A stretch of DNA of 19,960 nt from a virus (taxonomy: Duplodnaviria; Heunggongvirae; Uroviricota; Caudoviricetes), in the IMG/VR virus record IMGVR_UViG_3300029337_000252, positions 1 to 19,960 of that record. One strand, 5' to 3'. Shown here one piece after another: positions 989 through 17,381 of the stretch; within the stretch, counting starts at the first letter, position 1; each line of letters opens with the position of its first letter. The notes below the pieces were generated by a model. The model did no database searches, was not told the DNA's origin, and was given only the letters and a program-made list of their open reading frames with translations. A program made the translations under genes and the position numbers.

Positions 989-1639
989 TTAATTTGATTT
1001 ATTCGCATCCATCAGCGCTTTTAACTCCTCCGGCGTAAACGGTGGTTTGCGCCGGTGCAGCATCGCATGGCAATTAGGGCACACAGGAAGTAAATCATTA
1101 ACTGGATCCAGCTGGTAATCCTCTTTAATGGCTGAAAGCGGCACCAGGTGATGCATATGGATAAAACCCTCAGCGATATCGCCATAGATCTTCACCAGAT
1201 CAACGCCGCATACGTTGCACTGGCATCCGTGATGTTCGACTGCTTTCTCGCGAGCTTTTTTATCGCGTTCATAGCGGTTTACCGTCACCTTTATCGCCGC
1301 ACCTTCAACGTAGGTCCCCTGCGACGGCAACTCATCCGGGAACAGAACATCGGCTATGGGAGCCGCAGCGGCTTTATCCTGATGAATATGAAATCCCTGA
1401 TCTATAAGTAGCTTGACGCATTTAGATTTTATTCCGCCGGTGAAATCCGCAGGGGTAAATTGCGTCCCCGTCATCAATGTCGCTGCGATACCAGCAATCG
1501 CCTTCGAGGGGTAACGTCGGCCATGATATTCAATCTCATACAACCGTGCAGGCTGGAACTGATGAGTTTCTCCCGCATCCCATAAATGAATAGCTTTGAT
1601 GATATACCGCCGAGGAAGATGATCGGGGAGTTTATTCAT
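989..1639 (-). CDS. HNH endonuclease-family protein with an N-terminal domain of unknown function, 216 aa
   Basis: C-terminal HNH signature (CQCNVCG ... HMHHLVPLS ... CPNCH). Convergent with nanS, 7-bp gap. N-terminal about 120 aa not recognised. Confidence 0.75.
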   Translation of the reverse strand: MNKLPDHLPRRYIIKAIHLWDAGETHQFQPARLYEIEYHGRRYPSKAIAGIAATLMTGTQFTPADFTGGIKSKCVKLLIDQGFHIHQDKAAAAPIADVLFPDELPSQGTYVEGAAIKVTVNRYERDKKAREKAVEHHGCQCNVCGVDLVKIYGDIAEGFIHMHHLVPLSAIKEDYQLDPVNDLLPVCPNCHAMLHRRKPPFTPEELKALMDANKSN

Positions 1640-2017
1640 GGAGAATGTCCTTATACGTTCTCAGAACAAGCAGCAAAAAAACAAATGAGATCAAGGTAAT
1701 ATATCTTCACTTGCAGGCTTGAACAGCAGAAAATTTGCGAGCATGATCGCAATTATTTCACTGCCAGGGATATCAATGGCTTCCAGTAAATCGCTACAGC
1801 AGGCAATTGCCAATATAAAAATCTGGCATAAGGGTGAACAGCGCGCACCGCATAAACCATTGTTATTGCTATACGTATTAGCGGGATACCTGAATGGACA
1901 TCCGCGCCTTTTCGATTATTGTAGTGGAACAGTCTACGAGGATGCAGTTTGAAGTGAGTAAGTAAAGGTTGCTGGAAACGATCAATGCCGCCATACAATG
2001 ATATTTGAGGATCACCA

Positions 2018-2203: not shown

Positions 2204-2405
2204 ACAATTTCAGCCTTGTAGCCTTTCAAGGGTTTTGTGTGGGTACAAACATTATCGAATCGGGATATAGCCGCAGCTGTAGCTGTATCCACATCAGTAA
2301 GTTGATGTAGGTTGACTTAGGTTGAGCGAAAAATAGCGAAAAGCCTTGTGTGGCGCGGATTTCAGTCATAAAAAAAACGTCCGTTGACGTCTATTGATGT
2401 TCCGA

Positions 2406-2453
2406 TGGTGCGAAGGTGCGAAGGTGCGAAGGTGCGAAGGCCGGACTCAAACA
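2406..2453. other. attL-like core: inverted, degenerate copy of a tRNA-Leu (leuX-type) 3' end with a 4x tandem GTGCGAAG expansion
   Basis: Reverse complement reads GAGTCCGGC(CTTCGCAC)x4 CA, close to the leuX 3' end (..GAGTCCGGCCTTCGGCACCA) recalled from memory. No intact tRNA gene is present. Confidence 0.55.
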
Positions 2454-2642
2454 TCAAAATAAGTTAATGATAAAAAACAAATAATAAAACACAACAATGA
2501 AATATGCCCCCTTTTGTGCCCCCACTGTTTTTCTGACCAATCTATTTTCAGCCCATCAATAAATCGGAAAGTTAAATCATTTTTAATCAGTAAGTTTGGA
2601 TCCGTAGCTCGGATCCAAACCAGTGCATCTTTTATCCACATA

Positions 2643-2936
2643 AAAAATTTTTTTTCGAAAGAACTGTTCACACTGTTCACCTTTCTGTTTTCTCCTTTTA
2701 TTTCAGAGTGATAGGTGGTGAATAATGGGTGAAGGGTGAACATTCGATTCTTCACCTCCGGCATTCTGCCGGTGTGACTCATACCGGTGATTAATCCCCC
2801 GTACTGAAATCACTCAGGAAGAAAAAAGTTTTTTTTGATTTGATTGTTCACACTGTTCACCTTTCGTTTTTCTCTTTTAATTTCAGTATGATAACGGGTG
2901 AATATACGGTGAAGGGTGAACAGTGGATTGTTCACC
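2643..2936. repeat. crr-like cis replication region: two ~114-bp direct repeats (period 180 bp) carrying TGTTCACC/GGTGAACA octamers
   Basis: Units about 2643-2756 and 2823-2936 are near-identical (A6-T8 tract, TGTTCACACTGTTCACC, GGTGAAGGGTGAACA, TTCACC). Lies immediately 3' of alpha, as crr does in P4. Confidence 0.7.
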
Positions 2937-2953
2937 TGCGGGGGATATCGGGA

Positions 2954-2979
2954 TAAAAAAAGACCGGCAGATGCCGGTC
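2954..2979 (-). terminator. Rho-independent terminator downstream of alpha
   Basis: 7-bp GC-rich stem (GACCGGC / GCCGGTC), 4-nt loop, followed on the minus strand by a U7 tract; 17 nt past the alpha stop codon. Confidence 0.6.
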
Positions 2980-2995
2980 AGGTGGGTCATGAGGG

Positions 2996-5329
2996 TCAGG
3001 TTGTCGCAGGGTCGTCACATTTTGGCAGCCAGTCGCCGTAGCTTTCCTCTTTCAGCGTCAGGTTGGTCTGTATCCCCTGTTTGGTATGGCGCTTCTCGTA
3101 ATTCAGTCCGTATTCCTTCAGCATCACCGGCAGCCCCAGCCCGAACATTTTCAGACTGAGTACATTCCGGTAGCCGTTTGCCTCCATGTAGGCCAGATAG
3201 GCGTGATAGAGGTATTTACGGTAATTACGCGGGATGATACTGGCGTTCCCCATATACATGCCGCTGGTCTGCGGCAGGGTTTCCAGATAGCCGATAAAAT
3301 CAAACGTCGGGTCGGCATCCCGTTTGATGTTCAGCGCCTCGTCTGAGTTCTGCTGGGACTGAAGCAGTGACCGGGCGAGCATCGGGTCGCTGAACTTCTG
3401 CATCAGGTGACGCACGATGACCGCCAGCTCGCGGGTGATTTTGTCCTTAAGCTGCGGGTCGCGCTCCTGCGGGGCTATCTGTTCCGGGAAGTGAATAATC
3501 ACCCGCCGGCGTGACACGCCGCCGCTGCGGTCGGTGAAGCGCATCGGGTTATTGTTCACGGCCAGAATCACCGCCGGGATGTGCGTGGAGTATGCATCCC
3601 GGTATTTCGGGTCAACGGACACCGCATCGCCGCCGGTGATGGCCTTGAGTCCGGCACCGTCGCCGCTCCATTTTTCCTGGTCCGGCAGGCGTATCAGTGA
3701 GAAGCCAGTTAACGCGGCACGTTCACGCGGGGATTCCAGCGTCTCAATGGTGGCCGACGTGGCGTTATCTTCCCCGGCCAGCAGGGTGGCTATTTCGGCC
3801 ATGATACTTTTGCCGCTGCCGCCGGGACCGGTCACCTCCAGAAAGAGCTGCCAGTCGTAGCGGTTTGCCAGCACCATAAACAGTGCGGCCAGAATCACGT
3901 CGCGTTTTTCCGCACGGCCACCGGCGGCACGGTCAAGCCAGCGCCAGAACGCGGGGGCGTGGGTTTCCAGCGTTTCCCCTTCCACCGGCGGGGTGAAATC
4001 CACATCACACAGGGTGCGCATCCAGTGTGACGGACTGTGCGGGTGGAACGTGCCGTTCTGCGTGTCGAGCACGCCGTTACGAAAGCCAATCAGGCGGCGG
4101 GAGGGGGCTTCCTGCTGCGGAATAATCAGCTTCAGGGTGTCCACCACGGAGGCCACCTTCCCGGAGGAGAACGGCGCGCGCAGACGCTGAAACAGCCCGG
4201 CCACATCCCGGGCAAAGTCCTGTGGCGGCAGCACCTTCCAGACACCATTTTCATAGCGGGACAGAAGCTGGCCGTTGGCATCGACCGCGAGCGCCTCGCC
4301 GTAATGCTCATAGATACGCATGGCCTTTTCACTGGTACTCATGGCGGAAAACTCCGCTTCGCTCATGGTGTCGAACGGGCTTTCAGCCGGTGGCCGGATG
4401 GCATCGTAAATGGCCTTACGGGTGGCTTCCCTGCCGTACTGCGTGAAGGCATCATTCCAGTCACCGAAGACCGGCGGCAGGGCAACAACACCTTCACACG
4501 CATCTGCGGCTGCGGCGGCTTTTTTCTGGCCGTCACCGCTGAGGTCACGGTCTGCGGCAAGGACAATCTGACAGGCCGGATGCTTCTGCCGGGCAAGGCT
4601 GGCCAGAGAAAGGAGGTTCACGGAAGAAAGCGCCACCATCACCGTTTCACCGGTCAGGTGATGTACGGTAAGTGCGGTCGCGTATCCCTCCGCTATCCAC
4701 AGACGTTTTCCGGCCTGATTCTGTCCTTCAAGGATGTGACAGGTGCCCCTGACCTGCCCGCCTTTCAGGGTGCGCTTACGGCCGTCAGCGCTGATTAACT
4801 GAAGGTTAACAAGTTCGCCGCTGTCGTCATACAGTGGCACCACAAGGTCACCGGCGCGCCAGCTCACGCCACCGGCTCTGTGTGTGCCGGTCAGCATCCG
4901 GCATTCCCGGCCGGGAAAGCCCTTGCGGGTCAGGTAGGCGTTACCGGTTCCGGTACGGGTTTTCGCCATCAGGGTTTGTGCCAGTGCGGCGGCGTTCTTC
5001 CGGGCAGCGTCTGTTTCAGCACCGGCGGCGGCCGTCACTGCCGGGTCAGCCGGGGGCAGGCTGCCGGTCACGGCAGCCACCTTTGTGGCCGCGTCGGACG
5101 GGGAGACACCAAACACCTTTTCAACCAGTTTCAGGCCGTCACCGGCACCACACTGATTGCAGTACCAGGTGCCGCGCCCCTCCCTGTCATCAAAACGGAA
5201 GCGGTCACTCCCGCCACAGACCGGACAGGGCTGATGACGGTTTTTCAGCACCTGAATCCCCAGCGCCGGGAGGATACGCGGCCAGTGGCCGAGCGCATGG
5301 CTGACGGTGGCGGTTACGTTCATTTTCAT
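2996..5329 (-). CDS. alpha: P4 alpha-type primase/helicase, 777 aa
   Basis: N-terminal zinc-binding primase motifs (CPVCGG ... WYCNQCG), central TOPRIM-like region, C-terminal Walker A (GPGGSGKS) of a D5/SF3-type helicase. Length equals P4 alpha. Confidence 0.95.
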   Translation of the reverse strand: MKMNVTATVSHALGHWPRILPALGIQVLKNRHQPCPVCGGSDRFRFDDREGRGTWYCNQCGAGDGLKLVEKVFGVSPSDAATKVAAVTGSLPPADPAVTAAAGAETDAARKNAAALAQTLMAKTRTGTGNAYLTRKGFPGRECRMLTGTHRAGGVSWRAGDLVVPLYDDSGELVNLQLISADGRKRTLKGGQVRGTCHILEGQNQAGKRLWIAEGYATALTVHHLTGETVMVALSSVNLLSLASLARQKHPACQIVLAADRDLSGDGQKKAAAAADACEGVVALPPVFGDWNDAFTQYGREATRKAIYDAIRPPAESPFDTMSEAEFSAMSTSEKAMRIYEHYGEALAVDANGQLLSRYENGVWKVLPPQDFARDVAGLFQRLRAPFSSGKVASVVDTLKLIIPQQEAPSRRLIGFRNGVLDTQNGTFHPHSPSHWMRTLCDVDFTPPVEGETLETHAPAFWRWLDRAAGGRAEKRDVILAALFMVLANRYDWQLFLEVTGPGGSGKSIMAEIATLLAGEDNATSATIETLESPRERAALTGFSLIRLPDQEKWSGDGAGLKAITGGDAVSVDPKYRDAYSTHIPAVILAVNNNPMRFTDRSGGVSRRRVIIHFPEQIAPQERDPQLKDKITRELAVIVRHLMQKFSDPMLARSLLQSQQNSDEALNIKRDADPTFDFIGYLETLPQTSGMYMGNASIIPRNYRKYLYHAYLAYMEANGYRNVLSLKMFGLGLPVMLKEYGLNYEKRHTKQGIQTNLTLKEESYGDWLPKCDDPATT

Positions 5330-5343
5330 GGTGTTGTTCTCCT

Positions 5344-5664
5344 TCAGTGCAGTACCGGCGCTTTTATGTGACGGGCACAGAGTTCATCCATCACAACCAG
5401 CCCGAGAAAGGACAGCGACGGCGCGGCCTTCAGGGGGCCGGATTCCATTAAATCTTCCAGCAGGGCACAGGCTATCTGACGCCCTTTTTCCTCACCGTGC
5501 TGGCGCAGATAAAAGCCTTCCAGCTCAGCGGCGATGGCCGCCTCCAGTGATTCAAGGGTGAGATGCGGGTAGCGGTGCTGACGTTCGCACACGGTCAGCC
5601 AGGCACAGGCGACAGCGCGACGGTAAAGGGCAGCGCGTAAGACGGGCGGTAAGGGTGTTTTCAT
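5344..5664 (-). CDS. Hypothetical protein, 106 aa (P4-like early operon)
   Basis: ORF in operon context between orf151 and alpha, 14 nt upstream of alpha. No motif recognised. Confidence 0.55.
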
Positions 5665-5799
5665 TTGCTTTCCTCCCTGTGACAGATGACTGCATTCCGT
5701 GCCGGTTGCATTAACTGATAAGGCATATCTGCGTCTCCTGAAGACGTGCGTATCCCTGCGCGAATACGCACATTTAATTTTTCGGGTGTCGTTTTTTAA

Positions 5800-6255
5800 T
5801 TACAGATAATTGCGGTAACTGTTATCCGGGGTGATTTCCGGGTCAGGCTCCGTGCGGGGAATTTCCCGCCATTCCCGCGCCACCGGTGCTGCCCGGCTGA
5901 CCGGAACAGGGTCCTGCGGGTAAATATCCAGATATTTCTCACGCCATTTCTGTAATTCCGGGTCTCCGGCCATTTCTTTCAGTACCGCATGCCGGTTTAC
6001 GGGGCTGCGTTTAAACAGGTCAGGACGGTCACAGGTAAATTCCCGCAGAAAACGCCCCAGCGGGATGTCTGTGGTGCGCCCGTCAGCGAGGATACGCACA
6101 AGGATACTGAATTTACGGCGGTACGGGTTCCAGACAATGTCCGGGCAGCGGTACGGCATTTCCCACGGAATACCGTCTTCCAGAATGCCGACCACGGCCA
6201 CATCGGGAAAACCGGCAGAACGGTAAATCTCACCGGGCTGGGGAAAATCAAACAT
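5800..6255 (-). CDS. P4 orf151-like protein, 151 aa
   Basis: Size and position (between epsilon and alpha) match P4 orf151; start overlaps the stop of the upstream gene. Confidence 0.65.
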   Translation of the reverse strand: MFDFPQPGEIYRSAGFPDVAVVGILEDGIPWEMPYRCPDIVWNPYRRKFSILVRILADGRTTDIPLGRFLREFTCDRPDLFKRSPVNRHAVLKEMAGDPELQKWREKYLDIYPQDPVPVSRAAPVAREWREIPRTEPDPEITPDNSYRNYL

Positions 6256-6535
6256 GCGTCCTGTCTCCCCGGTCTTTCTGCTGGGCGAGAAAATCGCGGC
6301 ACAGGCCTTTGGCTTTCAGCTCATTCAGCACAAAATCAATATCTTCATTCAGGTAGCTGAAAATATGCGGAATGTAGAGCTGATGCAGGCCGGAGAGTTC
6401 ACGGTGAATCAAATCACCCCCAACAAACCGGGATACGGCGCTGGCGCGGTTGAGCTTATGGTAAGCCTCAATGCTGAGGTGTTCACGGGCGTCATGACGC
6501 GCTGAGACGGTCTGAGGGGCTTTTTTATTACGCAC
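6248..6535 (-). CDS. Epsilon-like protein, 95 aa, proposed GTG start
   Basis: The ORF track gives 190 aa (to 6820), but the first 95 residues are low-complexity. A GTG with a GGAGG Shine-Dalgarno 5 nt upstream gives a 95-aa product, the size I recall for P4 epsilon. Confidence 0.5.
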
Positions 6536-6725
6536 GGGACACCTCCACCACCGGCAGACGGGCAGCAAGGGAGAGCACATAGTCACGGACAAGGGAACGG
6601 CGGGCACTGCGTTCATCACCGGCGACGGTGCGAAGCATACAGATACGGGGATGACGGTCTGTGCGACGGACAGCCGCAAACACAAAGACAAATTCAGGGT
6701 GTGAGGGGGTAAGGGTTGTAGCCAT
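6528..6725 (-). CDS. Hypothetical small protein, 65 aa
   Basis: ATG preceded by AGGAGG (8-nt spacer); overlaps the proposed epsilon start. Replaces the 214-aa track ORF 6528-7172. Confidence 0.5.
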
Positions 6726-6728
6726 GAT

Positions 6729-6847
6729 GGCAGCCTCCTGTGAATAGCAAATAACGCTATCGCCGGAGTTTCCACGCTCGATGGCGATAGCCCAGACGGG
6801 GGTGGAAATACCGGCTTCACAGGATACCGGCCAGCCCGGAGGCTGCC
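6729..6847 (-). promoter_or_regulatory. Structured leader upstream of orf66: hairpin plus U-tract and an anti-SD segment (candidate immunity/attenuation region, cI-like)
   Basis: 9-bp stem hairpin (6766-6774 / 6793-6801) followed on the minus strand by a U-rich run; 10-nt GGCAGCCUCC (6838-6847) exactly complementary to the orf66 SD region GGAGGCUGCC (6729-6738). Confidence 0.35.
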
Positions 6848-7123
6848 CCGCCTGAGCTACCATTGACTCTGCGGCATAATGAGCGGACGCGGGCAGGATG
6901 CACGGAATGCCATCTGCACGACTGACCACACACCACACCATAATCTGGCGCTCTGTGGCGTTGATTGCGACACAAAAAAAGACGCATGGCGCGTCATATG
7001 TCGCCTGTGAATTGCTCGGGTTTCCACGCCCGGCTGCCGATTTTGCGGCAGCGGAAAAACTATATCCGCAAATGCCGGAAAAAGGCAAGCCAGAAAAAGG
7101 GACTTTTTGCAGAGCGGGCATCA

Positions 7124-7390
7124 TCATGCGTCGTACCCCCGTTTGCGTCCGGCAATGCGCCCGGCCATCCATGCGGTGACTTCAGAGTGCAGCCAGGCCA
7201 CATTTTTACCGCCAAGACTCACCTGCGGCGGAAATTCCCCCTTACGGATGAGTTCATAGATGGTCGAGCGTGACAGGCCGCACAGGTGCATCACTTCCGG
7301 AAGACGTAAAAAACGCTCCTGTGTGATGTCCGGCAGCGGCATCAGTGGCGTCACAGGGGCGGGAGACGGGGAAGAAAAAACAGCTTGCAT
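7124..7390 (-). CDS. vis: Vis/AlpA-family DNA-binding regulator/excisionase, 88 aa
   Basis: AlpA-like helix-turn-helix core ([27 protein letters not shown]); size matches P4 orf88 (vis) as I recall it. Confidence 0.7.
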
Positions 7391-7493
7391 CGGGCTACCT
7401 CGTTAATGTCCATACAGCACCGGATAAGTCCGTCCGGCTTCGGGTAGCGCTTTATTTTGTGAATATTTTCAGCAGACGCAACAGGGGGGATTT

Positions 7494-7511
7494 GTTCCGG
7501 CAGCCTTACAA
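7494..7511. promoter_or_regulatory. TGT-N12-ACA dyad: candidate Delta/Ogr activator site of a leftward late promoter (P_LL-like)
   Basis: TGTTCCGGCAGCCTTACA, about 105-120 bp upstream of the vis start on the minus strand; same dyad form as P2/P4 late promoters. Confidence 0.4.
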
Positions 7512-7669
7512 TGCTTGTGTATTTTTTGTTCATCTCCACTTAAAGTCATTTAAAGCCACTTAAAGCAATTCGTAATTTTTATAGTGAAATACAAATCGTT
7601 TTTTCTTATTCATTCCCGGCGAATTAATAAAAACAAACAGTAATAAACAGCACAAAAAGCCCATCAACG

Positions 7670-7773
7670 GGTGAACAGTGGTGAACAGACGGTGAACAGT
7701 CATTACTGCGATTGTTCACCCTTTAACTTACTGTATTACTTATCTTTTTTCTTATGGTGAACAGAGGTGAACA
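7670..7773. repeat. ori-like iteron cluster: six TGTTCACC octamers (alpha-binding type I repeats)
   Basis: GGTGAACA at 7670, 7680, 7691, 7756 and 7766; TGTTCACC at 7713. Sits between the divergent vis and sid operons, about 4.7 kb from the crr-like repeats. Confidence 0.7.
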
Positions 7774-7853
7774 GTAAAATATAAAAAAAATAAACAGTAA
7801 GCCGTTTTTTCCAGCGACCTTTTCCTGGCTTGCCGGTCTGAGGATGAGTCTCC

Positions 7854-7871
7854 TGTGTCAGGGCTGGCACA
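7854..7871. promoter_or_regulatory. TGT-N12-ACA dyad: candidate Delta/Ogr activator site of the rightward late promoter (P_sid-like)
   Basis: TGTGTCAGGGCTGGCACA centred about 80 bp upstream of the sid ATG. Confidence 0.5.
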
Positions 7872-7943
7872 TCTGCAATGCGTCGTGTTGCTGTCCGGTG
7901 TACGTCACAATTTTCTTAACCTGAAGTGACGAGGAGCCGGAAA

Positions 7944-8678
7944 ATGTCTGACCACACTATCCCTGAATATCTGCAACCCGCACTGGCACAACTGGAAAAG
8001 GCCAGAGCCGCCCATCTTGAGAACGCCCGCCTGATGGATGAGACCGTCACGGCCATTGAACGGGCAGAGCAGGAAAAAAATGCGCTGGCGCAGGCCGACG
8101 GAAACGACGCTGACGACTGGCGCACGGCCTTTCGTGCAGCCGGTGGTGTCCTGAGCGACGAGCTGAAACAGCGCCACATTGAGCGCGTGGCACGCCGGGA
8201 GCTGGTACAGGAATATGACAATCTGGCCGTGGTGCTGAATTTTGAACGCGAACGCCTGAAAGGGGCGTGTGACAGCACGGCCACCGCCTACCGGAAGGCA
8301 CATCATCACCTTCTGAGTCTGTATGCAGAGCATGAGCTGGAACACGCCCTGAATGAAACCTGTGAGGCGCTTGTCCGGGCAATGCATCTGAGCATTCTGG
8401 TACAGGAAAATCCGCTCGCCAACACCACCGGCCATCAGGGCTACGTCGCACCGGAAAAGGCTGTCATGCAGCAGGTGAAATCATCGCTGGAACAGAAAAT
8501 TAAACAGATGCAAATCAGCCTCACCGGCGAGCCGGTTCTCCGGCTGACCGGACTGTCAGCGGCAACACTTCCTCACATGGATTATGAGGTGGCAGGCACA
8601 CCGGCACAGCGCAAGGTGTGGCAGGACAAAATAGACCAGCAGGGAGCAGTGCTTAAGGCCAGAGGACTGCTGTCATGA
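7944..8678 (+). CDS. sid: Sid, capsid size determination (external scaffold) protein, 244 aa
   Basis: Start moved to the ATG at 7944 (GAGGAG SD upstream) rather than the track's 7926; length then matches P4 Sid. First gene of a sid-delta-psu operon. Confidence 0.9.
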   Translation: MSDHTIPEYLQPALAQLEKARAAHLENARLMDETVTAIERAEQEKNALAQADGNDADDWRTAFRAAGGVLSDELKQRHIERVARRELVQEYDNLAVVLNFERERLKGACDSTATAYRKAHHHLLSLYAEHELEHALNETCEALVRAMHLSILVQENPLANTTGHQGYVAPEKAVMQQVKSSLEQKIKQMQISLTGEPVLRLTGLSAATLPHMDYEVAGTPAQRKVWQDKIDQQGAVLKARGLLS

Positions 8679-9175
8679 TTTACTGCCCGTCGTGTGGACA
8701 TGTTGCTCACACCCGCCGCGCACATTTCATGGACGATGGCACCAAGATAATGATTGCACAGTGCCGGAATATTTATTGCTCTGCGACATTTGAAGCGAGT
8801 GAAAGCTTTTTCTCTGACAGTAAAGATTCAGGAATGGAATACATTTCAGGCAAACAGAGATACCGCGATTCACTGACGTCAGCCTCCGGCAGTATGAAAC
8901 GCCCGAAAAGAATGCTTGTTACCGGATATTGTTGTCGGAGATGTAAAGGCCTTGCGCTGTCAAGAACATCGCGGCGTCTGTCTCAGGAAGTCACCGAGCG
9001 TTTTTATGTGTGCACGGATCCGGGCTGTGGTCTGGTGTTTAAAACGCTTCAGACCATCAACCGTTTCATTGTCCGCCCGGTCACGCCGGACGAACTGGCA
9101 GAAAGCCTGCATGAAAAACAGGAACTGCCGCCAGTACGCTTAAAAACACAATCATATTCGCTGCGTCTGGAATGA
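8675..9175 (+). CDS. delta: Delta, late-gene transcriptional activator (tandem Ogr-like zinc fingers), 166 aa
   Basis: Two Ogr-type zinc-finger halves (CPSCGH..C..C and CRRCKG..C..C); ATGA overlap with the sid stop. Confidence 0.9.
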   Translation: MIYCPSCGHVAHTRRAHFMDDGTKIMIAQCRNIYCSATFEASESFFSDSKDSGMEYISGKQRYRDSLTSASGSMKRPKRMLVTGYCCRRCKGLALSRTSRRLSQEVTERFYVCTDPGCGLVFKTLQTINRFIVRPVTPDELAESLHEKQELPPVRLKTQSYSLRLE

Positions 9176-9248
9176 GGGCTGCCGGTTAACACCGGCCGTC
9201 GCCGCACACCGTATTTTTATTCTTCAGCATGATGAGAAAGAGATAACG

Positions 9249-9821
9249 ATGGAAAGCACAGCCTTACAGCAGGCCTTTGACACCTGTCAGAATAACAAAG
9301 CAGCATGGCTGCAACGCAAAAATGAGCTGGCAGCGGCCGAACAGGAATATCTGCGGCTTCTGTCAGGAGAAGGCAGAAACGTCAGTCGCCTGGACGAATT
9401 ACGCAATATTATCGAAGTCAGAAAATGGCAGGTGAATCAGGCCGCCGGTCGTTATATTCGTTCGCATGAAGCCGTTCAGCACATCAGCATCCGCGACCGG
9501 CTGAATGATTTTATGCAGCAGCACGGCACAGCACTGGCGGCGGCACTGGCACCGGAGCTGATGGGCTACAGTGAGCTGACGGCCATTGCCCGAAACTGTG
9601 CCATACAGCGTGCCACAGATGCCCTGCGTGAAGCCCTTCTGTCCTGGCTTGCGAAGGGTGAAAAAATTAATTATTCCGCACAGGATAGCGACATTTTAAC
9701 GACCATCGGATTCAGGCCTGACGTGGCTTCGGTGGATGACAGCCGTGAAAAATTCACCCCTGCGCAGAACATGATTTTTTCGCGTAAAAGTGCGCAACTG
9801 GCATCACGTCAGTCAGTGTAA
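9249..9821 (+). CDS. psu: Psu, polarity suppression (anti-Rho, capsid decoration) protein, 190 aa
   Basis: Length and position (last gene of the sid operon, just before cos) match P4 Psu. Confidence 0.9.
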   Translation: MESTALQQAFDTCQNNKAAWLQRKNELAAAEQEYLRLLSGEGRNVSRLDELRNIIEVRKWQVNQAAGRYIRSHEAVQHISIRDRLNDFMQQHGTALAAALAPELMGYSELTAIARNCAIQRATDALREALLSWLAKGEKINYSAQDSDILTTIGFRPDVASVDDSREKFTPAQNMIFSRKSAQLASRQSV

Positions 9822-9856
9822 AATTCCCCGAAAATCCGCCCGTTTTTACTGAAAAA

Positions 9857-9895
9857 AGCCATGCATCGATAAGGTGCATGGCTTTGCATGCGTTT
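9857..9895 (+). terminator. Terminator-like hairpin after psu
   Basis: 9-bp stem (AGCCATGCA / TGCATGGCT) with a T-rich tail; A-run upstream, so possibly bidirectional. Confidence 0.45.
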
Positions 9896-9985
9896 TCCTG
9901 CCTCATTTTCTGCAAACCGCGCCATTCCCGGCGCGGTCTGAGCGTGTCAGTGCAACTGCATTAAAACCGCCCCGCAAAGCGGGCG

Positions 9986-10238: not shown

Positions 10239-11165
10239 ATGCACGCTTTAGCACCGTATCTTTTCCGCTGCTACAATCCGAACGCAGCCAAAGAACAACG
10301 TTATTCAGCACTGAGTAACATCAGAGAACATGATTTACTTGATATACTCGATGAATTTATTAAGCAGTATAATGAAGAATATATCCTTTCTGAAGAAACC
10401 AAACAAGTTTTTCGTTTTAATGAGATTACACGCGATAACAACAATCGAGAAATATATGGATGGTTCGAGTCTGGATATTACGGAACAAAGACCGACATAA
10501 TAAACATTGAAACTGGCGATGTAGACTTCGAAAAGACAAAAAACAATGCTGAAATAATTAGATATTACATACATTTTTATATTCCTAGAGATGTAAATGA
10601 AGGCATGGCGTTTTTACATACCTATAGAGGTGATGGTATAAAAACTCTTTTTATGAGATTGTTTTCAGATTATTTCAAGAGGGTTACCAACTTAGTGATT
10701 CAAATGAACCCTCTGGCGTATGATAAAGCGATTGAAAAATGGATGAATGCCATTACCAAAGAAATCAAGGTAACTAAATTCCATGGCATTACAGATGTAG
10801 CTGAACAAGCCAAAAAGCTAGGCCATAACGAGCAAGAATTAATTATCAAACCGCCTCGAAATGCAGGACTTGGAAGACTTCGAGACTATTTCTCCAGAGG
10901 CTCGGAGCAATATCAACTCGTTGAAGTCCTTAAAGAATATGGAGAAACAGTAAAAACAGTTGTTGAATTAGATAATGGCAGAAAAAGAACTTTTCATATT
11001 GGAACAACAGCAAGGGGAGCTGTATGTGAAATTTTATTTGATGAAGAACAAGTTGTTTTTTATGATGGCATGCCGGAAATAGCATCACTAAATAATTTTG
11101 TTGATGTTATTATCATGGAATATATACAGTTGTTATATCGTGGTGTTACTATAAGGAGAGCGTAA
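10239..11165 (+). CDS. Hypothetical soluble protein, 308 aa (cargo gene A, candidate sensor of a defence module)
   Basis: AAGGAGA SD 7 nt upstream; about 30% GC by eye; no Walker A, HNH, TOPRIM, TIR or other motif I can recognise. Confidence 0.8.
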   Translation: MHALAPYLFRCYNPNAAKEQRYSALSNIREHDLLDILDEFIKQYNEEYILSEETKQVFRFNEITRDNNNREIYGWFESGYYGTKTDIINIETGDVDFEKTKNNAEIIRYYIHFYIPRDVNEGMAFLHTYRGDGIKTLFMRLFSDYFKRVTNLVIQMNPLAYDKAIEKWMNAITKEIKVTKFHGITDVAEQAKKLGHNEQELIIKPPRNAGLGRLRDYFSRGSEQYQLVEVLKEYGETVKTVVELDNGRKRTFHIGTTARGAVCEILFDEEQVVFYDGMPEIASLNNFVDVIIMEYIQLLYRGVTIRRA

Positions 11166-11749
11166 TGAGTTCAAAGATAAATATATGCGAAGTTCTTATA
11201 GGCCACTTCAGAACTTTAAAAAATGCTGACACTAATAAGATCAGTTTATGGGATATATTTACATTCATAATACTACCATTTATTATTGCTGCCGCATTCT
11301 CACTCCTTGGAAGTGGTATAACAAAAGATTTAATATCATTATTAGTTAATTTCAGTGCAATACTAACAGCATTACTGCTTAGCGTTCTTGTTTTAGTATA
11401 TGATCAAGAATCAAAAATAAGACAAAGAAAAGATATTGATACATTCTATGAATCAAAGAAAGCATTACTCACTGAACTTTATTATAACATTTGTTATTCA
11501 ATTTTATGTGGAGTTTTGTTAGTCGTGTTGTGTTTTATAGTATCACTGTTTCCTGTCAATCAATCAGGATTCTTTTACGGCAAAACACATGAATATTATG
11601 TCAGCATAATAAACACAACTCTAAAATTAAATGTGTTATACTATTTTTTATGCCCACTCATAATATATGTTTGCGTACATTTAATTTTGAATATCATTAT
11701 GATTGTTAAAAGAATGCACGCACTCTTAACTCTTGATGTGAATGATTAG
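11165..11749 (+). CDS. Hypothetical 4-helix membrane protein, 194 aa (cargo gene B, candidate membrane effector)
   Basis: TAATG stop/start overlap with gene A. Four hydrophobic segments (about aa 27-51, 55-79, 104-129, 155-181); about 30% GC. Confidence 0.8.
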   Translation: MSSKINICEVLIGHFRTLKNADTNKISLWDIFTFIILPFIIAAAFSLLGSGITKDLISLLVNFSAILTALLLSVLVLVYDQESKIRQRKDIDTFYESKKALLTELYYNICYSILCGVLLVVLCFIVSLFPVNQSGFFYGKTHEYYVSIINTTLKLNVLYYFLCPLIIYVCVHLILNIIMIVKRMHALLTLDVND

Positions 11750-11803: not shown

Positions 11804-12191
11804 CTATTTAAGTTGTCTAGCAAAATCATATGGTGTAATACTTTCTTTCTTATTTCTATCTAAATAATCTGCCCACCACTGTATCATTAAACGCCTTTCG
11901 TCTAAATGCTCAGATGTATGAATATAAGCAGCACGTACATTATTACGTTCTGAGTGACTTAGCTGACGTTCAATCGCATCATCACTCCATAAGCCTGATT
12001 CCCCTAATGCTCCACGCGCCATCGTTCTAAACCCGTGCCCGCAAACTTCGGTTTTCGTGTCATAGCCCATCGCACGCAATGCGCTATTTACTGTATTTTC
12101 ACTCATAACCTTAGTTGCGTCATGATCCCCCGGAAAAAGCAGTTCTTTATCACCACTAATCTGCTTTAACTGGTTTAGCTGCGTATTTTCA
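11804..12191 (-). pseudogene. int: P4-type tyrosine integrase, 3' fragment (C-terminal about 125 aa), N-terminal part removed at the IS junction
   Basis: Carries the C-terminal catalytic box (HGFRTMARGALGE ... RQLSHSERNNVRAAYIH). The reading frame runs into the IS left end at about 12192, and the first codons of the track ORF are IS-derived. Confidence 0.85.
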
Positions 12192-12372
12192 TGAAAGGAG
12201 ATCACTCAATAACTTCCATCGAGATCGGGTAATAACATTTGAACAGATCGCTGAATAACATCGATGGAGATCACTTTTGACTCATTTTGTTATTCAGTGA
12301 TCTCCATCAATGTTATTGGAACTTCACAGGTGTGTTGATCTGTATCTTTTGCCATTCCGGTAAAGGATACCT

Positions 12373-13914
12373 ATGCCAACAGTTCCAATTTCTATGAGAA
12401 AACTTAAAGAAATTCTTAGGCTTAAATACGGTGTTGGACTCAGCCATCGACAAATTGGTCGTAGTCTTGCAATCTCCCCTTCCGTTGTATCCAGATATGC
12501 TAATCGGGCGGCTCAACTTGGCATAAAGCAGTGGCCCTTACCTACAGGATGGGATGATACAAAACTAAAACATGCGTTCCTTCAGACCCAGGTTAAGATG
12601 AAGAAGCACTCTCTGCCTGACTGGGCTACAGTACACCGGGAACTGCGTAATAAATGCGTGACGCTGCAGCTACTCTGGGAAGAATACTGTGAGCGTAATC
12701 CAGGCGGTTTTTACAGCTATAACCATTACTGCCGGATGTACCGTGAATGGCTCAAAACCACTTCACCATCAATGCGTCAGGTACATAAAGCTGGCGAAAA
12801 ACTTTTCGTTGATTACTGTGGACCTACCGTTGGCGTTACCGACCCTGAGACCGGAGAAATAAGAACTGCTCAGGTCATCGTAGCTGTTCTCGGGGCATCA
12901 AGTTACACATGGGCAGAGGCCACCTGGTCTCAGCAGCTTGAAGACTGGGTGATGAGTCATGTTCGCTGCTTCCAGTGGTTGGGTGGCGTTCCTGAACTTG
13001 TTGTTCCGGACAATCTGAAAAGCGCCACATCCAGGGCATGTAAGTATGATCCTGACGTTAACCCTACCTACCAGCAGATGCTTGAGCATTATAATGTCGC
13101 AGTTTTGCCTGCGCGGCCACGTAAACCGAAAGATAAAGCCAAAGCTGAAGTTGGCGTTCAGGTTGTTGAACGCTGGATCATGGCCCGAATCAGGCATGAG
13201 ATCTTCTACAGCCTTGCATCGCTTAATCAGCGCATTCGGGAGTTGCTGGAAAGACTGAATAACAAAATAATGCAGAAGTTGGGTTATTCACGTGCAGAAC
13301 TCTTCATCCAGCTTGATAAACCCGCACTGAAGCCTCTTCCTGAAGCCAGTTACAGTTACACCCTGGTGAAGAAAGTCAGAGTTCATGCCGATTACCACGT
13401 GGAAATCGACAAACATTACTACTCGGTTCCATGTTCGCTGTTAGGCCAGCAACTGGAAGCATGGATCTCCGGAGAACTGGTAAGACTCTTCAATCAGGGG
13501 CAGGAGGTTGCTGTGCACCCGCGCAAGCGTACTTATGGCTACAGTACCCGCAACGAGCACATGCCTGAAGCTCATCGACAGCATGCCACCTGGACGCCAG
13601 AGCGTCTTCTGGAATGGGCGGGGCACATAGGCAGTGAAACTCATAGTTATGTGCTTCATATACTGAACTCTCGTCCACATCCGGAACAAAGCTATCGCTT
13701 CTGCCTTGGACTCCTGAACCTTCATAAAAAATACAGTAAAGCCAGACTTAATGCAGCATGTGCAAGAGCTCTGAAAACAAAGGTATGGCGTCTGTCAGGT
13801 ATTAAATCGATCCTGGAAAAAGGTCTGGATAAACAACCTGTTCAGGATCCAAAACCAGATCTGTTATCCACGATGGAACACGAAAACGTACGCGGCAGTG
13901 AGTATTACCACTGA
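12373..13914 (+). CDS. istA: IS21-family transposase IstA, 513 aa
   Basis: N-terminal helix-turn-helix, large size, followed 12 nt later by an IstB-type ATPase gene. Confidence 0.9.
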   Translation: MPTVPISMRKLKEILRLKYGVGLSHRQIGRSLAISPSVVSRYANRAAQLGIKQWPLPTGWDDTKLKHAFLQTQVKMKKHSLPDWATVHRELRNKCVTLQLLWEEYCERNPGGFYSYNHYCRMYREWLKTTSPSMRQVHKAGEKLFVDYCGPTVGVTDPETGEIRTAQVIVAVLGASSYTWAEATWSQQLEDWVMSHVRCFQWLGGVPELVVPDNLKSATSRACKYDPDVNPTYQQMLEHYNVAVLPARPRKPKDKAKAEVGVQVVERWIMARIRHEIFYSLASLNQRIRELLERLNNKIMQKLGYSRAELFIQLDKPALKPLPEASYSYTLVKKVRVHADYHVEIDKHYYSVPCSLLGQQLEAWISGELVRLFNQGQEVAVHPRKRTYGYSTRNEHMPEAHRQHATWTPERLLEWAGHIGSETHSYVLHILNSRPHPEQSYRFCLGLLNLHKKYSKARLNAACARALKTKVWRLSGIKSILEKGLDKQPVQDPKPDLLSTMEHENVRGSEYYH

Positions 13915-13925
13915 TACGGGATCCA

Positions 13926-14675
13926 ATGATGAATCATCTTTACGAACAACTGACCGCACTTAAACTCACCGGCTTCCGTGATGCGCTTAAAAAGCAACTT
14001 GCTCAGCCGGGCACATACCAGGAGCTGGGCTTCGAAGAACGCCTGTCATTACTGACAGCAGAAGAACTAACCTGCCGTGAAAACAGGAAGGCAGAGCGTC
14101 TGATCAAACATGCACGGTTCAGACTTAATGCTGAGTTATCAAAGCTGGATTATCGTAACAATAGAGGGCTGGACAGGGCCTTCATCCGTTCACTCAGTCA
14201 GGGAAACTGGTTAACCCTGAAACAAAATATTTTACTGACCGGGGCCACCGGCAGCGGTAAAACGTTCCTGGCATGTGCACTTGGTCATAATGCCTGCCGA
14301 CAGGGATACAAGGTCTACTATTATCGCCTTAAAGCGCTGATGGAACAGTGCTATCAGGGGCATGCTGATGGAAGATACAGCAAACTTTTGACCAGGCTGA
14401 ATAATAGCGATCTGCTGCTTCTGGATGACTGGGGGCTGGAACCTCTCTCATCAGAACAGCGTAGCGACCTGCTGGAAATAGTGGATCTGATGTACCAACG
14501 AGGCTCAATCATCGTAGTGAGCCAGTTGCCGGTGGAAAACTGGTACAAAATGATCGGAGACTCCACACATGCGGATGCCATCCTAGATCGACTGGTTCAT
14601 GGCAGTATCAAGATCGAACTTAAAGGAGAATCAATGCGGAAAATACAATCTCCGTTGACCGAAGGAGATCAGTGA
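13926..14675 (+). CDS. istB: IS21-family helper ATPase IstB, 249 aa
   Basis: Walker A (GATGSGKTFLACALG) and Walker B (LLLLDDWG) of the DnaC/IstB AAA+ family. Confidence 0.9.
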   Translation: MMNHLYEQLTALKLTGFRDALKKQLAQPGTYQELGFEERLSLLTAEELTCRENRKAERLIKHARFRLNAELSKLDYRNNRGLDRAFIRSLSQGNWLTLKQNILLTGATGSGKTFLACALGHNACRQGYKVYYYRLKALMEQCYQGHADGRYSKLLTRLNNSDLLLLDDWGLEPLSSEQRSDLLEIVDLMYQRGSIIVVSQLPVENWYKMIGDSTHADAILDRLVHGSIKIELKGESMRKIQSPLTEGDQ

Positions 14676-14745
14676 AGGTAATTTAAAAACGGTTCTGTGA
14701 AAGTGACACGAACCGATCTCCATCGATGTTACTCACCGATCTCCT

Positions 14746-15183
14746 TCACGGTAATACGCAAAAAGTTAGCTGGATTCTTAGGCCATTAGAAATTCCAACA
14801 TCTTTAGAGGCTTTAAAACTCGTAATAATGGAATCGTCAATTTTAATTCCGTCTCGACAGATGACCGAAATAATTTGCTTCTGGTCACGCCAGCTTTCCA
14901 GAGTGTCGATGAAGTTTTCCACCAGCTTATTATCTCTTGAGATGAGGATACTACCGGATTCACCAACCACAACCACACCACTGATTGAAATAGTTCTGGG
15001 TGAACGCATTACATTATCTGTGACAGCCTGCCCTGATTGCATATTTTGAGTGGTAACCATCATAGGGCTATCAAATTCCATGTTCTCAGTAGCTGATAGT
15101 GACAAGAAATTATCTGGTTGGCCTTGTAGATGGAAGTAAACACCATCTTTGCCACTGTAACGAAGCTGATTAGTGTAAATCAT
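14746..15183 (-). CDS. Phage tail component downstream of the tape measure gene, truncated at its 3' end by the IS (145 aa as read)
   Basis: Start set at the ATG with an AAGGAGA SD (track ORF begins 7 codons earlier at TTG). Its stop codon is supplied by the last 3 nt of the IS right end. Confidence 0.5.
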
Positions 15184-15341: not shown

Positions 15342-17381
15342 TCAATCATCTTCTGGGAATGATGAACTTAATAGCGTAGCTTCTGCGTATTGGTCGTAGA
15401 TATTACCGCTAAAGGTCATAAAGCTGGTTTCATCTGGTTTAATGGCAACTTCACCACCAAGTGAAACTTTCACAGGCTCCTGAATACGTTTACTCAAAGC
15501 GGAGATTTCATCTCTCAGGCTTTGGATATCTGCACTCGTTAATGCTGAATCTTGCTTAATGTTGTTTAATTCTGGATGCTGGAAGTTAGCAAGATTCATG
15601 GCAGCACTATTAAACCACCCTTTAACATCATCCATAGTGAAAGCGGGTTTAAGTCCAGACTCTTTAGCTAGCTCTGGTAATTTAGCTTGTGCTTCCATTC
15701 GTTCAGGCGTAGAAGCTAATCTCTCATAACCTGCATAGATTGCACTACCAGTTAATAGCATATTCCCAAGATTAAACCTTGATGGTTTCCCGTTCTTTTT
15801 ATTTACGTTATCTGCTGTAGTATCAGCGACCTGACCTAATCTTGTGATAGCAGTCATAAGCCCGTAAATACTTCTAGTTACACCAACAACTTTATTTACA
15901 GCAATAACACCAGCCAAGACTTTTAAACTATTAATCAAGCCAGAACCTAAAGCATCAACAACTTTCTTTTGTTCATCGGTTAAACCACGATAAGCTAATG
16001 TCACCTCATCAAAGAACGCTCTCACCCTGTAACTAATATAAGTCAGGTTATCGATACCATGTGACATATCACTCATCAAGCTACCAAGACTTTCACCTAA
16101 TGTTTTACCACTTCCATCTAAACTATTTAAAAGCGTTGTTAAGCTTCGTGTAAAATCTTGCAGACCATTTTCAGAACCTTTGAAAATATCCGTTAATGAG
16201 TTATTCCAGGTATTCTTTAAGTTCCCTAACATTGTCTGCGTAGAGTCCTGAATAGCTTTCCAGCCACCTCTTGAATTAATCTGTGCACCAAGTTCTTTAG
16301 CAAACTTAGGGAGTGCATCAGAGGCTTTAACATCACCATTTTTCATCTTATCGAAAAGCTGTTTTTCAGTCAGACCTAAAGCCTTTGCAAATGCCTGAGT
16401 AGCACCCGGTAAAGCTTCAGATAATTGCCCCTTCAACTCCTCAGACATCACCTGCCCCTTAGAAGCCATCTGCGATACTGCGGTTAATGCTCTTTGAATC
16501 TGCTCATCTGAACGCCCCATTAGACGGGCATATCCAGTTAAGTTTTTAAATAATTCCTCTGAGCCTTCAAGACCCATCGTATTCTTTGCAGATGCACCGA
16601 ATGAGGCAAACTGAGCTTGTGTTTCGGTCGTGTCCATACCCGTGACTTGAGTTAAATCCTGAATGAACTTTTTAACCTGTGTACTTTGGTCACCGAATAC
16701 GAAATCAATACTTCTTTCCGATGATGCACGCTGTAAACCAACTTCCATAATCTTCTGATAACTGGCTAATACAGCTTGCATTGAGATAAATGCACCTGCT
16801 GTTTTAACTGCTGCTGAAGACAGGTTATCAAGACTATTAGCTGCTCTGTCACCATTAATGCTGGTGGATGTATGACCTCTGGCTTTAGCAATTGCTTCTC
16901 GTACACTTGAATTTAGTTTAGCAAGGGCTTCATTAAACTTGGTGTTATCCATCTGACCAGCTTTACTACTTAATGCGTAAAACTGGCTCTTAATGTATTT
17001 CTCGACAATTGGGTTAAGACCTTTCAGTTTGGTCATACTCGCTGAATAAGCTGCTGTGATTGCTCTGCTTCCGCTAATTCGTGGTTGCCTTGATTGTCTA
17101 AGTGGCTTTAAAGTATCCTCAATTTCCGTTTTAATCTTAAACGCTTTAGTGTTTTTAAGACGCTGCTCAATCTTGGAAACAGTTTTATCGACATTTCTTT
17201 CCATGACCTTGAGAGAATCATTTAAAGGCGTAGGATTAACTCTGAATGCTTTATTTAGTCGTTTTTCAATTCTTGATGCGATTTGCATCGTTTGTTTCTC
17301 GGCTTTTTCCAAGCCTTTTAAAACTTTCTGAGAGTTAAAACTTAACTCAATCAGGAAGTCATCAACTTTAAACTGTGCCAT
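15342..17381 (-). CDS. Phage tail tape measure protein, 679 aa
   Basis: Long, helix-rich, low in aromatics; central segment (GQVMSEELKGQLSEALPGATQAFAKALGLTEKQLFDKMKNG) resembles the conserved tape-measure core region. Confidence 0.8.
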   Translation of the reverse strand: MAQFKVDDFLIELSFNSQKVLKGLEKAEKQTMQIASRIEKRLNKAFRVNPTPLNDSLKVMERNVDKTVSKIEQRLKNTKAFKIKTEIEDTLKPLRQSRQPRISGSRAITAAYSASMTKLKGLNPIVEKYIKSQFYALSSKAGQMDNTKFNEALAKLNSSVREAIAKARGHTSTSINGDRAANSLDNLSSAAVKTAGAFISMQAVLASYQKIMEVGLQRASSERSIDFVFGDQSTQVKKFIQDLTQVTGMDTTETQAQFASFGASAKNTMGLEGSEELFKNLTGYARLMGRSDEQIQRALTAVSQMASKGQVMSEELKGQLSEALPGATQAFAKALGLTEKQLFDKMKNGDVKASDALPKFAKELGAQINSRGGWKAIQDSTQTMLGNLKNTWNNSLTDIFKGSENGLQDFTRSLTTLLNSLDGSGKTLGESLGSLMSDMSHGIDNLTYISYRVRAFFDEVTLAYRGLTDEQKKVVDALGSGLINSLKVLAGVIAVNKVVGVTRSIYGLMTAITRLGQVADTTADNVNKKNGKPSRFNLGNMLLTGSAIYAGYERLASTPERMEAQAKLPELAKESGLKPAFTMDDVKGWFNSAAMNLANFQHPELNNIKQDSALTSADIQSLRDEISALSKRIQEPVKVSLGGEVAIKPDETSFMTFSGNIYDQYAEATLLSSSFPEDD

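What the first reader, a model, noticed from the sequence alone, without database searches (positions are those of the whole stretch)
2406..2453. attL-like site carries a four-fold tandem expansion of an 8-bp unit derived from the tRNA acceptor-stem region
Seen: TGGTGCGAAGG(TGCGAAGG)x3 CCGGACTCAAAC, whose reverse complement is a leuX-type 3' end with the CTTCGCAC segment repeated four times, plus one missing G and one transition relative to my recollection of leuX. Inference: this is the prophage-distal att copy, and the repeat expansion sits inside the integrase crossover region. Such an expansion could come from replication slippage or repeated abortive recombination, and it may affect excision.
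Basis: partly seen in the sequence, partly recalled or inferred. Interest (0 to 1): 0.5.

Follow-up and report, generated by a model that had tools for sequence, protein, structure and literature searches.

The report
Variable 8-bp repeat in leuX att remnant
The four-fold 8-bp repeat is real and lies in the leftover copy of the leuX tRNA end that marks the far edge of a P4 prophage, but it is a copy-number-variable scar shared by hundreds of E. coli genomes next to unrelated islands, so it is a mildly interesting variant of an ordinary attachment-site remnant.

Summary
Confirmed: window 2406-2448 reads TGG(TGCGAAGG)x4CCGGACTC. This is the reverse complement of the leuX 3' end, with one base missing and an 8-bp unit present four times. 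To its right the sequence is phage P4 itself (98.5% identical from the attP core to cos). To its left is the leuX terminator and the integrase-side arm of an older, decayed leuX island. The site is therefore the tRNA-distal junction (attR by the usual convention) of a P4 prophage.

The repeat does not belong to this prophage. The same flank plus array sits next to at least six different element arms in other genomes. Copy number was 2-7 in the loci read, and 3 was commonest in an even-step sample of E. coli genomes. Arrays occur with only this one flank type.

The 1-base deletion is far more widespread: 33 of 35 P4-arm junctions, in at least five flank types.

Best explanation: a displaced, unselected leuX end lost one base, which created an 8-bp period. 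Replication slippage then expanded it, on the chromosomal side of the integrase crossover.

Here P4 int is cut by ISEc12, so this copy cannot excise on its own. Interest is low to moderate.

The parts
2216..2405 (-). Left flank. It is homologous to the integrase-proximal arm (between leuX and int) of intB/KpLE2-type leuX islands. Here it has no integrase, so it is the remnant of an older island. It contains GTTGA-type direct repeats at about 2301-2336.
   Evidence: The alignment covers strains PAR, K-12 DH5alpha, 1500 and M217. In those genomes the same sequence lies between intact leuX and an integrase gene.
2375..2392 (-). leuX-type intrinsic terminator hairpin plus U-run, 13 nt downstream of the pseudo-CCA end.
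   Evidence: Terminator scan (AGACGTCAACGGACGTTT TTTTT). The K-12-type flank has GACCTCAGTTGAGGTC at the same place, with compensatory changes.
2406..2408 (-). TGG, the complement of the tRNA CCA end. This is the left edge of the 20-bp P4/leuX core.
2409..2440 (-). Four perfect tandem units TGCGAAGG (tRNA sense CCTTCGCA). Each is the acceptor-stem 3' strand of leuX minus one G. The rightmost unit (2433-2440) is in register with the core.
   Evidence: Copy number was 2-7 in the loci read and 3 was commonest in an even-step genome sample.
2441..2448 (-). CCGGACTC, the intact right part of the 20-bp att core (T-stem/T-loop part of leuX).
   Evidence: Identical to P4 attP core 4078-4097 and to leuX.
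2449..2530 (.). P4 attP arm on the alpha/crr side. It includes the two annotated 12-bp arm-type repeats at about 2502-2525 (ATATGCCCCCTT, TTGTGCCCCCAC).
   Evidence: 99% identical to X51522 from position 4079 onward, with that record's annotation.
2431..9985 (.). P4 prophage body from the att core to the right cos end: crr, alpha primase-helicase 2996-5329 (-), ORF106/151, epsilon, cI, ori, sid, delta, psu.
   Evidence: blastn against X51522 gives 98.5% identity over 7556 bp.
11804..12205 (-). C-terminal fragment of the P4-type integrase (133 aa; profile positions 292-401 of 413). P4 homology stops at 12177.
12178..14760 (+). ISEc12 (IS21 family; istA 12373-13914, istB 13926-14675). It truncates int and joins the P4 remnant to the tail module of another prophage.
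   Evidence: annotation of matching genomes; (tape measure protein at 15342-17381).

Best explanation
The site is the tRNA-distal junction of a P4 prophage inserted at leuX. Its chromosomal half is an old, displaced copy of the leuX 3' end. That copy still carries the leuX terminator and the integrase-side arm of an earlier, decayed leuX island.

A displaced copy no longer has to make a tRNA. It lost one base (GCCGAAGG to GCGAAGG). That loss turned GG-TGCGAA-GG into an 8-bp unit bounded by GG microhomology. Slipped-strand mispairing during replication then duplicated the unit and keeps changing its number.

The extra units lie on the chromosome side of the integrase exchange point. They have therefore stayed in place while the element to their right was replaced several times.

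The array itself has no demonstrated function. Its one foreseeable consequence is that a precise excision would graft a defective 3' end onto leuX.

Shown: the anatomy, the polymorphism, and the linkage of the array to one flank. Inferred: slippage as the mechanism, the side of the crossover, and the consequence for leuX.
For: Anatomy:
- The core and arm are identical to P4 attP.
- The flank is homologous to the leuX-int spacer of intB-type islands and includes a terminator.
- Related genomes and contigs hold both junctions, with intact leuX beside int (L001; L054 and L058).

Polymorphism:
- A synthetic flank+10-unit query matched 1222 E. coli records. The even-step sample of 60 gave n=7 (1, the top hit), n=4 (4), n=3 (29) and n=2 (4). 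One row was ambiguous. The other 21 were single-copy sites on other flank types or leuX itself.
- Among 18 genomes with the same flank and the P4 arm, n=4 in 3, n=3 in 11 and n=2 in 4.
- Units are almost always identical. Variant units were seen only in L007 and L010.

Flank linkage:
- Arrays lie beside at least 6 different right arms.
- In arm-based scans that put no constraint on the flank (35 P4-arm junctions), all 5 arrays have this flank. None of the 30 junctions on other flanks has an array.

Crossover to the right of the defect:
- Strain 536 PAI II is flanked by exactly GTTCGAGTCCGGCCTTCG, and its distal copy is followed by a 2-base-deleted end.
- PMC9686529 describes an 18-bp direct repeat used for site-specific excision of PAI II.
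- Strain 15A has leuX carrying the 1-base deletion, fused to the same HsdR-flank context that in Z0117EC0040 borders an island.
Against: - No mutation-rate measurement exists. Copy-number change by out-of-register site-specific recombination cannot be excluded.
- The 1-base deletion is present in 33 of 35 P4-arm junctions across at least 5 flank types, and also beside other element arms. Simple neutral decay does not predict this. It fits better with a deletion carried on the element side (crossover left of it) or with selection.
- The scan patterns allowed variation only at that one position, so other defects went uncounted.
- No excised attP form was recovered, and no genome has leuX fused to an array. 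The side of the crossover is therefore inferred, not observed, for this element.
Confidence: 0.7

Rival explanations
1. The 1-base deletion is carried in the attP of most natural leuX-targeting elements, and strand exchange occurs in the last about 6 bp of the tRNA gene (TGGTGC = GCACCA). On this view the innermost unit comes from the element. Only the n-1 outer units are chromosomal, and each unit boundary (GG|TGC) repeats the crossover segment.
For: There is a strong association by right-hand neighbour. Element arms carry the deleted form in 33 of 35 P4-arm junctions on K, Q, B, A and two other flanks, and also beside intB-island and M217 arms. The leuX body carries the perfect form in 5419 of 5422 genomes. 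This needs only one origin of the deletion.
Against: Lab P4 attP is perfect. In strain 536 only ACCA remains identical 3' of the defect, yet the literature describes excision through the 18-bp repeat. Three genomes have the deletion in leuX itself. No attP form with the deletion was found.
Confidence: 0.22
2. Copy number is created or altered by integrase-mediated recombination in shifted registers, or by abortive cleavage and repair, rather than by replication slippage.
For: Each unit repeats part of the core. The deletion sits exactly at the 3' edge of the experimentally used 18-bp repeat of strain 536, as a cleavage scar might. Copy number differs among genomes with the same arm.
Against: Tyrosine recombination is conservative. 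Outer registers lack the CCGGACTC half-site. Arrays occur next to elements with different integrases and next to integrase-less remnants. Clonal genome sets share the same number.
Confidence: 0.1
3. The defective distal end (deletion with or without array) is selectively maintained because it makes leuX function depend on the resident element. Cured cells inherit a broken tRNA and are outcompeted or rescued by a new insertion.
For: The site is occupied in all array-bearing genomes, and none has leuX fused to an array. Only 3 of 5422 genomes have the deletion in leuX. The same defect persists through at least 6 element replacements. From memory (Blum 1994, Ritter 1995), loss of PAI II in strain 536 destroys leuX. 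Imperfect attR repeats of pheV islands have been linked to stability (PMC11537424).
Against: There is no fitness or excision data here. leuX is non-essential. The pattern could be survivorship alone, and the island-free strain HCP6S3_I1 keeps intact leuX with a chimeric flank.
Confidence: 0.2
4. Sequencing or assembly artefact.
For: Short tandem repeats can be miscounted.
Against: The array is seen in hundreds of independent complete genomes, viral contigs and metagenome contigs, with consistent flanks.
Confidence: 0.01

Closest known systems
Phage P4 attachment site at leuX (20-bp core TGGTGCCGAAGGCCGGACTC; X51522 4078-4097)
   Same: The right 8 bp of the core, the alpha-side arm with its two arm-type repeats, crr and all downstream P4 genes are 98.5-99% identical. 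The site is at the leuX locus next to nanS.
   Different: The chromosomal half of the core lacks one base and is present as four 8-bp units. The integrase of this copy is truncated by ISEc12.
Direct repeats flanking leuX pathogenicity islands (18-bp repeat of PAI II in E. coli 536)
   Same: Same tRNA, same integrase family, and the same type of distal half-site. In strain 536 the identity block also ends at exactly the position of the deletion (GTTCGAGTCCGGCCTTCG, then a shortened end) on a homologous flank.
   Different: Strain 536 has a 2-base deletion and no tandem expansion. The element beside it is a 100-kb island, not P4.
Imperfect attR repeats of P4-integrase islands at pheV (PMC11537424)
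   Same: Distal repeats that have drifted from the tRNA sequence, and that the authors discuss as stabilising the island.
   Different: Those are point substitutions in a 19-23-bp repeat. No tandem expansion is reported.
Bacterial VNTR / short tandem repeats generated by slipped-strand mispairing
   Same: Perfect head-to-tail units, copy-number polymorphism among isolates, and homogeneous units.
   Different: The unit is derived from a tRNA acceptor stem inside a recombination site. No phase-variable gene is attached.

Membership tests
P4 prophage att junction at leuX | 20-bp core identical to the leuX 3' end | tested here: not met
   One base is missing and the unit is repeated 4 times. The innermost register keeps 13 contiguous core bases plus GGTGC.
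P4 prophage att junction at leuX | Core abutted by a P4 attP arm with arm-type integrase repeats | tested here: met
   Window 2449-2530 is 99% identical to X51522 4098-4179, including the two annotated 12-bp repeats.
P4 prophage att junction at leuX | Partner junction: integrase next to an intact leuX | tested here: inconclusive
   It is not in the window, because int is cut at 12177 by ISEc12 and no leuX is present. It is present in relatives L001, L054 and L058.
P4 prophage att junction at leuX | Competence for Int-mediated excision | not testable with these tools
   It needs induction and PCR of attP/attB. In this genome int is a 133-aa fragment.
VNTR formed by slipped-strand mispairing | Perfect tandem units with copy number varying between isolates at the same locus | tested here: met
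   n=2-7 on the same flank.
VNTR formed by slipped-strand mispairing | Changes independent of site-specific recombination, at a measurable slippage rate | not testable with these tools
   It needs fluctuation assays or a dated phylogeny.
tRNA gene (leuX copy) | Complete cloverleaf | tested here: not met
   ARAGORN found 0 genes and Rfam gave no tRNA match. Only the last about 20 nt of the tRNA are present.

The most novel reading that the evidence does not exclude
The displaced leuX end is not just debris. A small lesion in it (the 1-base deletion here, a 2-base deletion in strain 536, and the 8-bp array in one flank lineage) stays with the chromosome at every exchange. leuX function then depends permanently on whichever element occupies the site. 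That would be a tRNA 'addiction ratchet'. It would explain why the same lesion is found on at least 5 flank types, why the site is almost never empty once lesioned, and why elements turn over without repairing it.
Probability: 0.2. Interest if true: 0.6.

Novelty: new variant of a known kind. Interest (0 to 1): 0.3.

Why it matters
For annotation, it shows that this boundary is a shared chromosomal landmark of the leuX hotspot, not a feature of one prophage. Its copy number is a cheap strain marker.

For mechanism, two sets of comparisons constrain where P4-family integrases exchange strands at leuX. These are array against flank, and deletion against arm. The comparisons also raise a testable question: do defective distal repeats stabilise islands by holding the tRNA hostage?

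None of this changes the basic picture of tRNA-targeted integration.

Tried and rejected
- tRNA and Rfam scans of the region found no gene and only chance-level matches.
- A literature search for the repeat sequence gave 0 papers. Searches on leuX direct repeats found the 18-bp PAI II repeat but no tandem array. Williams 2002 (integrase sublocations) is not held.
- The species-representative genome scan for two units returned only unrelated soil and gut MAGs with their own TGCGAAGG satellites, plus one E. coli-like contaminant contig. The repeat therefore does occur at unrelated loci in other phyla, but this does not bear on the tRNA origin here.
- Searches for excised attP forms (int arm + core + alpha arm) found none in viral contigs or metagenomes.
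- Scans for other arm types in viral contigs found nothing.
- A search for leuX fused to an array found none in 5426 genomes.
- The first strain 536 region fetched lacked the repeat. The next one held it.
- The assembly-artefact reading is rejected because of recurrence.
- A private mutation of this prophage is rejected because the array lies next to at least 6 different arms.

Full report
**1. Observation**

The window reads TGG (2406-2408), four perfect TGCGAAGG units (2409-2440), CCGGACTC (2441-2448) and then AAAC. Tandem Repeats Finder calls a period-8 array of 4.8 copies at 2403-2440. The two-unit 16-mer occurs three times against zero in 200 shuffles. No tRNA gene is predicted anywhere in the window.

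**2. What lies on each side**

The window is E. coli chromosome. nanS (1-981) and an HNH endonuclease gene (989-1639) lie to the left.

From 2431 to 9985 the sequence is 98.5% identical to phage P4, from the attP core (X51522 position 4079) to the right cos end. The annotated P4 core is TGGTGCCGAAGGCCGGACTC, and P4 continues AAACATCAAAATAAG, exactly as the window does. An intact leuX from strain VE-F10 has the same 20 bases followed by GAACCGG.

Two conclusions follow. The missing base (GCCG to GCG) is real.

The 190 bp to the left of the array align with the spacer that separates intact leuX from the integrase gene of intB/KpLE2-type islands in strains K-12, PAR, 1500 and others. This stretch includes a terminator hairpin 13 nt after the pseudo-CCA. 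In K-12 the hairpin shows compensatory changes.

The site is therefore the junction between an older, decayed leuX island (integrase lost) and a P4 prophage that later entered leuX and pushed the previous 3' end of the tRNA gene away. In VE-F10, and in metagenome contigs L054 and L058, the other junction shows P4 int beside a perfect leuX. By the usual convention this is attR, not attL.

**3. The array is a chromosomal polymorphism, not a feature of this prophage**

- A synthetic query (flank plus ten units) matched 1222 E. coli records. An even-step sample of 60 gave one site with 7 units (the top hit), 4 with 4 units, 29 with 3 units and 4 with 2 units. One row was ambiguous. The other 21 were single-copy sites on diverged flanks, or leuX itself.
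- Among 18 genomes with this flank and the P4 arm, 3 have four units, 11 have three and 4 have two.
- The loci I read show the same flank and array next to at least six different right-hand arms. These are P4, three variants of a CbtA/YeeU-type island arm, a CCGGACTCGCCTTTC arm, and the distal arm of an intB-type island. Within single arm types the number varies: 2-5, 3 and 7, 4 and 5.
- Units are identical except for one variant unit in L007 and two in L010.
- In scans anchored only on the P4 arm, and so blind to the flank, all 5 arrays among 35 junctions carry this one flank. None of the 30 junctions on other flanks has an array.
- The array therefore travels with the flank and has survived replacement of the neighbouring element.

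**4. The one-base deletion is much more general than the array**

- It is present in 33 of those 35 P4-arm junctions, on at least five flank types. It is also present beside the intB-island arm and the arm of a retron-bearing P4-like element.
- Perfect displaced cores exist but are rare: A10, L060, L064 and laboratory P4.
- Conversely, leuX itself is perfect in 5419 of 5422 genomes. Three genomes carry the deletion in leuX.
- Caveat: the scan patterns allowed variation only at that one position, so other lesions were not counted.
- I cannot fully explain this recurrence, and I record it as the main open point.

**5. Where the crossover lies**

Two comparisons place it to the right of the lesion in window orientation, which is 5' of it in the tRNA.

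- In strain 536 the distal end of PAI II is exactly GTTCGAGTCCGGCCTTCG, followed by ACCA and a homologous flank. That is an end shortened by two bases. This is the 18-bp repeat through which PAI II is reported to excise site-specifically (PMC9686529). From memory (Blum 1994, Ritter 1995), that excision leaves leuX non-functional.
- Strain O111:H21 15A has the deleted leuX fused directly to the HsdR-plus-flank context that in strain Z0117EC0040 borders an island. This is the product expected from excision with the lesion staying in the chromosome.

The rival view is that the deletion is element-borne and exchange occurs within GCACCA. It explains the arm association with a single origin. It conflicts with strain 536 and with perfect laboratory P4, and no attP form was recovered to decide.

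Under either view the outer n-1 units are chromosomal.

**6. Mechanism**

Losing one base converts GG-TGCCGAA-GG into an 8-bp unit flanked by GG. Slipped-strand mispairing can duplicate such a unit, and once two copies exist it can change the number freely. Several observations fit this better than recombination in shifted registers, though the latter is not excluded:

- the units are homogeneous;
- the number ranges from 2 to 7;
- the number varies within one arm type;
- clonal sets share the same number;
- arrays occur beside integrase-less remnants.

The innermost unit keeps GGTGC-GAAGGCCGGACTC in register. Extra units therefore only move the flank further away, on the side that needs no arm-type sites. 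I expect them to be nearly neutral for recombination beyond the effect of the deletion itself. This step is inferred.

No genome has leuX fused to an array. The one island-free genome on this flank, HCP6S3_I1, has a perfect leuX and a chimeric flank, which looks like homologous deletion between two flank copies.

**7. State of this copy**

P4 homology to int survives only at 11857-12177. The 133-aa ORF there matches the C-terminal quarter of integrase profiles. ISEc12 follows, and after it comes a tail module of a different prophage. The same IS-tail junction is present in other genomes. This prophage therefore cannot excise on its own, and its partner site is not adjacent.

**8. Verdict**

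The feature is a copy-number-variable scar in a known kind of site. I found no description of it in the searchable literature. It is a new variant of a known kind and of modest interest. The more intriguing by-product is the near-universal one-base lesion of displaced leuX ends and what it implies for island stability.

Noticed in passing
window 10239-11749 (+), two ORFs of 308 and 194 aa: Low-GC (0.31-0.35) cargo in the variable psu-int position of the P4 genome, replacing gop/beta/cII. There are no Pfam, NCBIfam or PADLOC hits, only PHROGs of unknown function (phrog_15676, phrog_15250). It is a candidate uncharacterised defence cargo of a P4 hotspot.
   Followed up: partly
window 11804-14760 and beyond to 19960: P4 int is truncated at 12177 by ISEc12. 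Beyond the IS lies a tape-measure/tail module of another prophage, and the same IS-tail junction exists in other E. coli genomes. This suggests IS-mediated rearrangement, or an assembly join through the IS.
   Followed up: partly
displaced leuX ends in L008, L032, L033, L035-L069 (many genomes and contigs): The same 1-base deletion (TGGTGC-GAAGG) occurs in 33 of 35 P4-arm junctions, on at least 5 unrelated flank types and beside other element arms. Perfect copies are rare. Simple decay does not explain this.
   Followed up: partly
L070 (strain 702/18), L071 (BS-04), L072 (O111:H21 15A), position about 3501: Three complete genomes have the 1-base deletion in leuX itself (an 84-nt tRNA-Leu). 15A looks like an excision scar. 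BS-04 has many frameshifted genes, so sequencing error is possible there.
   Followed up: partly
L075 5392-5409 (E. coli 536, NC_008253 about 4837391): The distal repeat of PAI II is exactly GTTCGAGTCCGGCCTTCG, followed by a 2-base-shortened tRNA end on a Q-type flank. The 18-bp repeat in the literature is thus bounded by the same lesion position.
   Followed up: yes
L024 about 5000-5110 (strain HCP6S3_I1): An island-free leuX-nanS interval has a chimeric flank (A-type distal part, K-12-type terminator part). This is consistent with deletion of the islands by homologous recombination between two flank copies.
   Followed up: partly
window 2375-2392 compared with L009 about 3070-3090: The leuX terminator hairpin differs between flank types by compensatory changes (ACGTC/GACGT against GACCTC/GAGGTC), and Q-type flanks have a third hairpin. 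The structure is conserved while the sequence is not.
   Followed up: no
L011, L013, L014, L016 (Longimicrobium and Vicinamibacterales MAGs): The identical 8-mer TGCGAAGG forms tandem arrays (up to 9 copies) in unrelated soil bacteria. These are apparently independent satellites with degenerate neighbouring units.
   Followed up: no
window 989-1952: An HNH endonuclease gene (weak type IV restriction enzyme hits in PADLOC) and an N-terminal fragment of a phosphorothioate-dependent restriction endonuclease lie between nanS and the att remnant. They are probably what is left of the older island's defence cargo.
   Followed up: no
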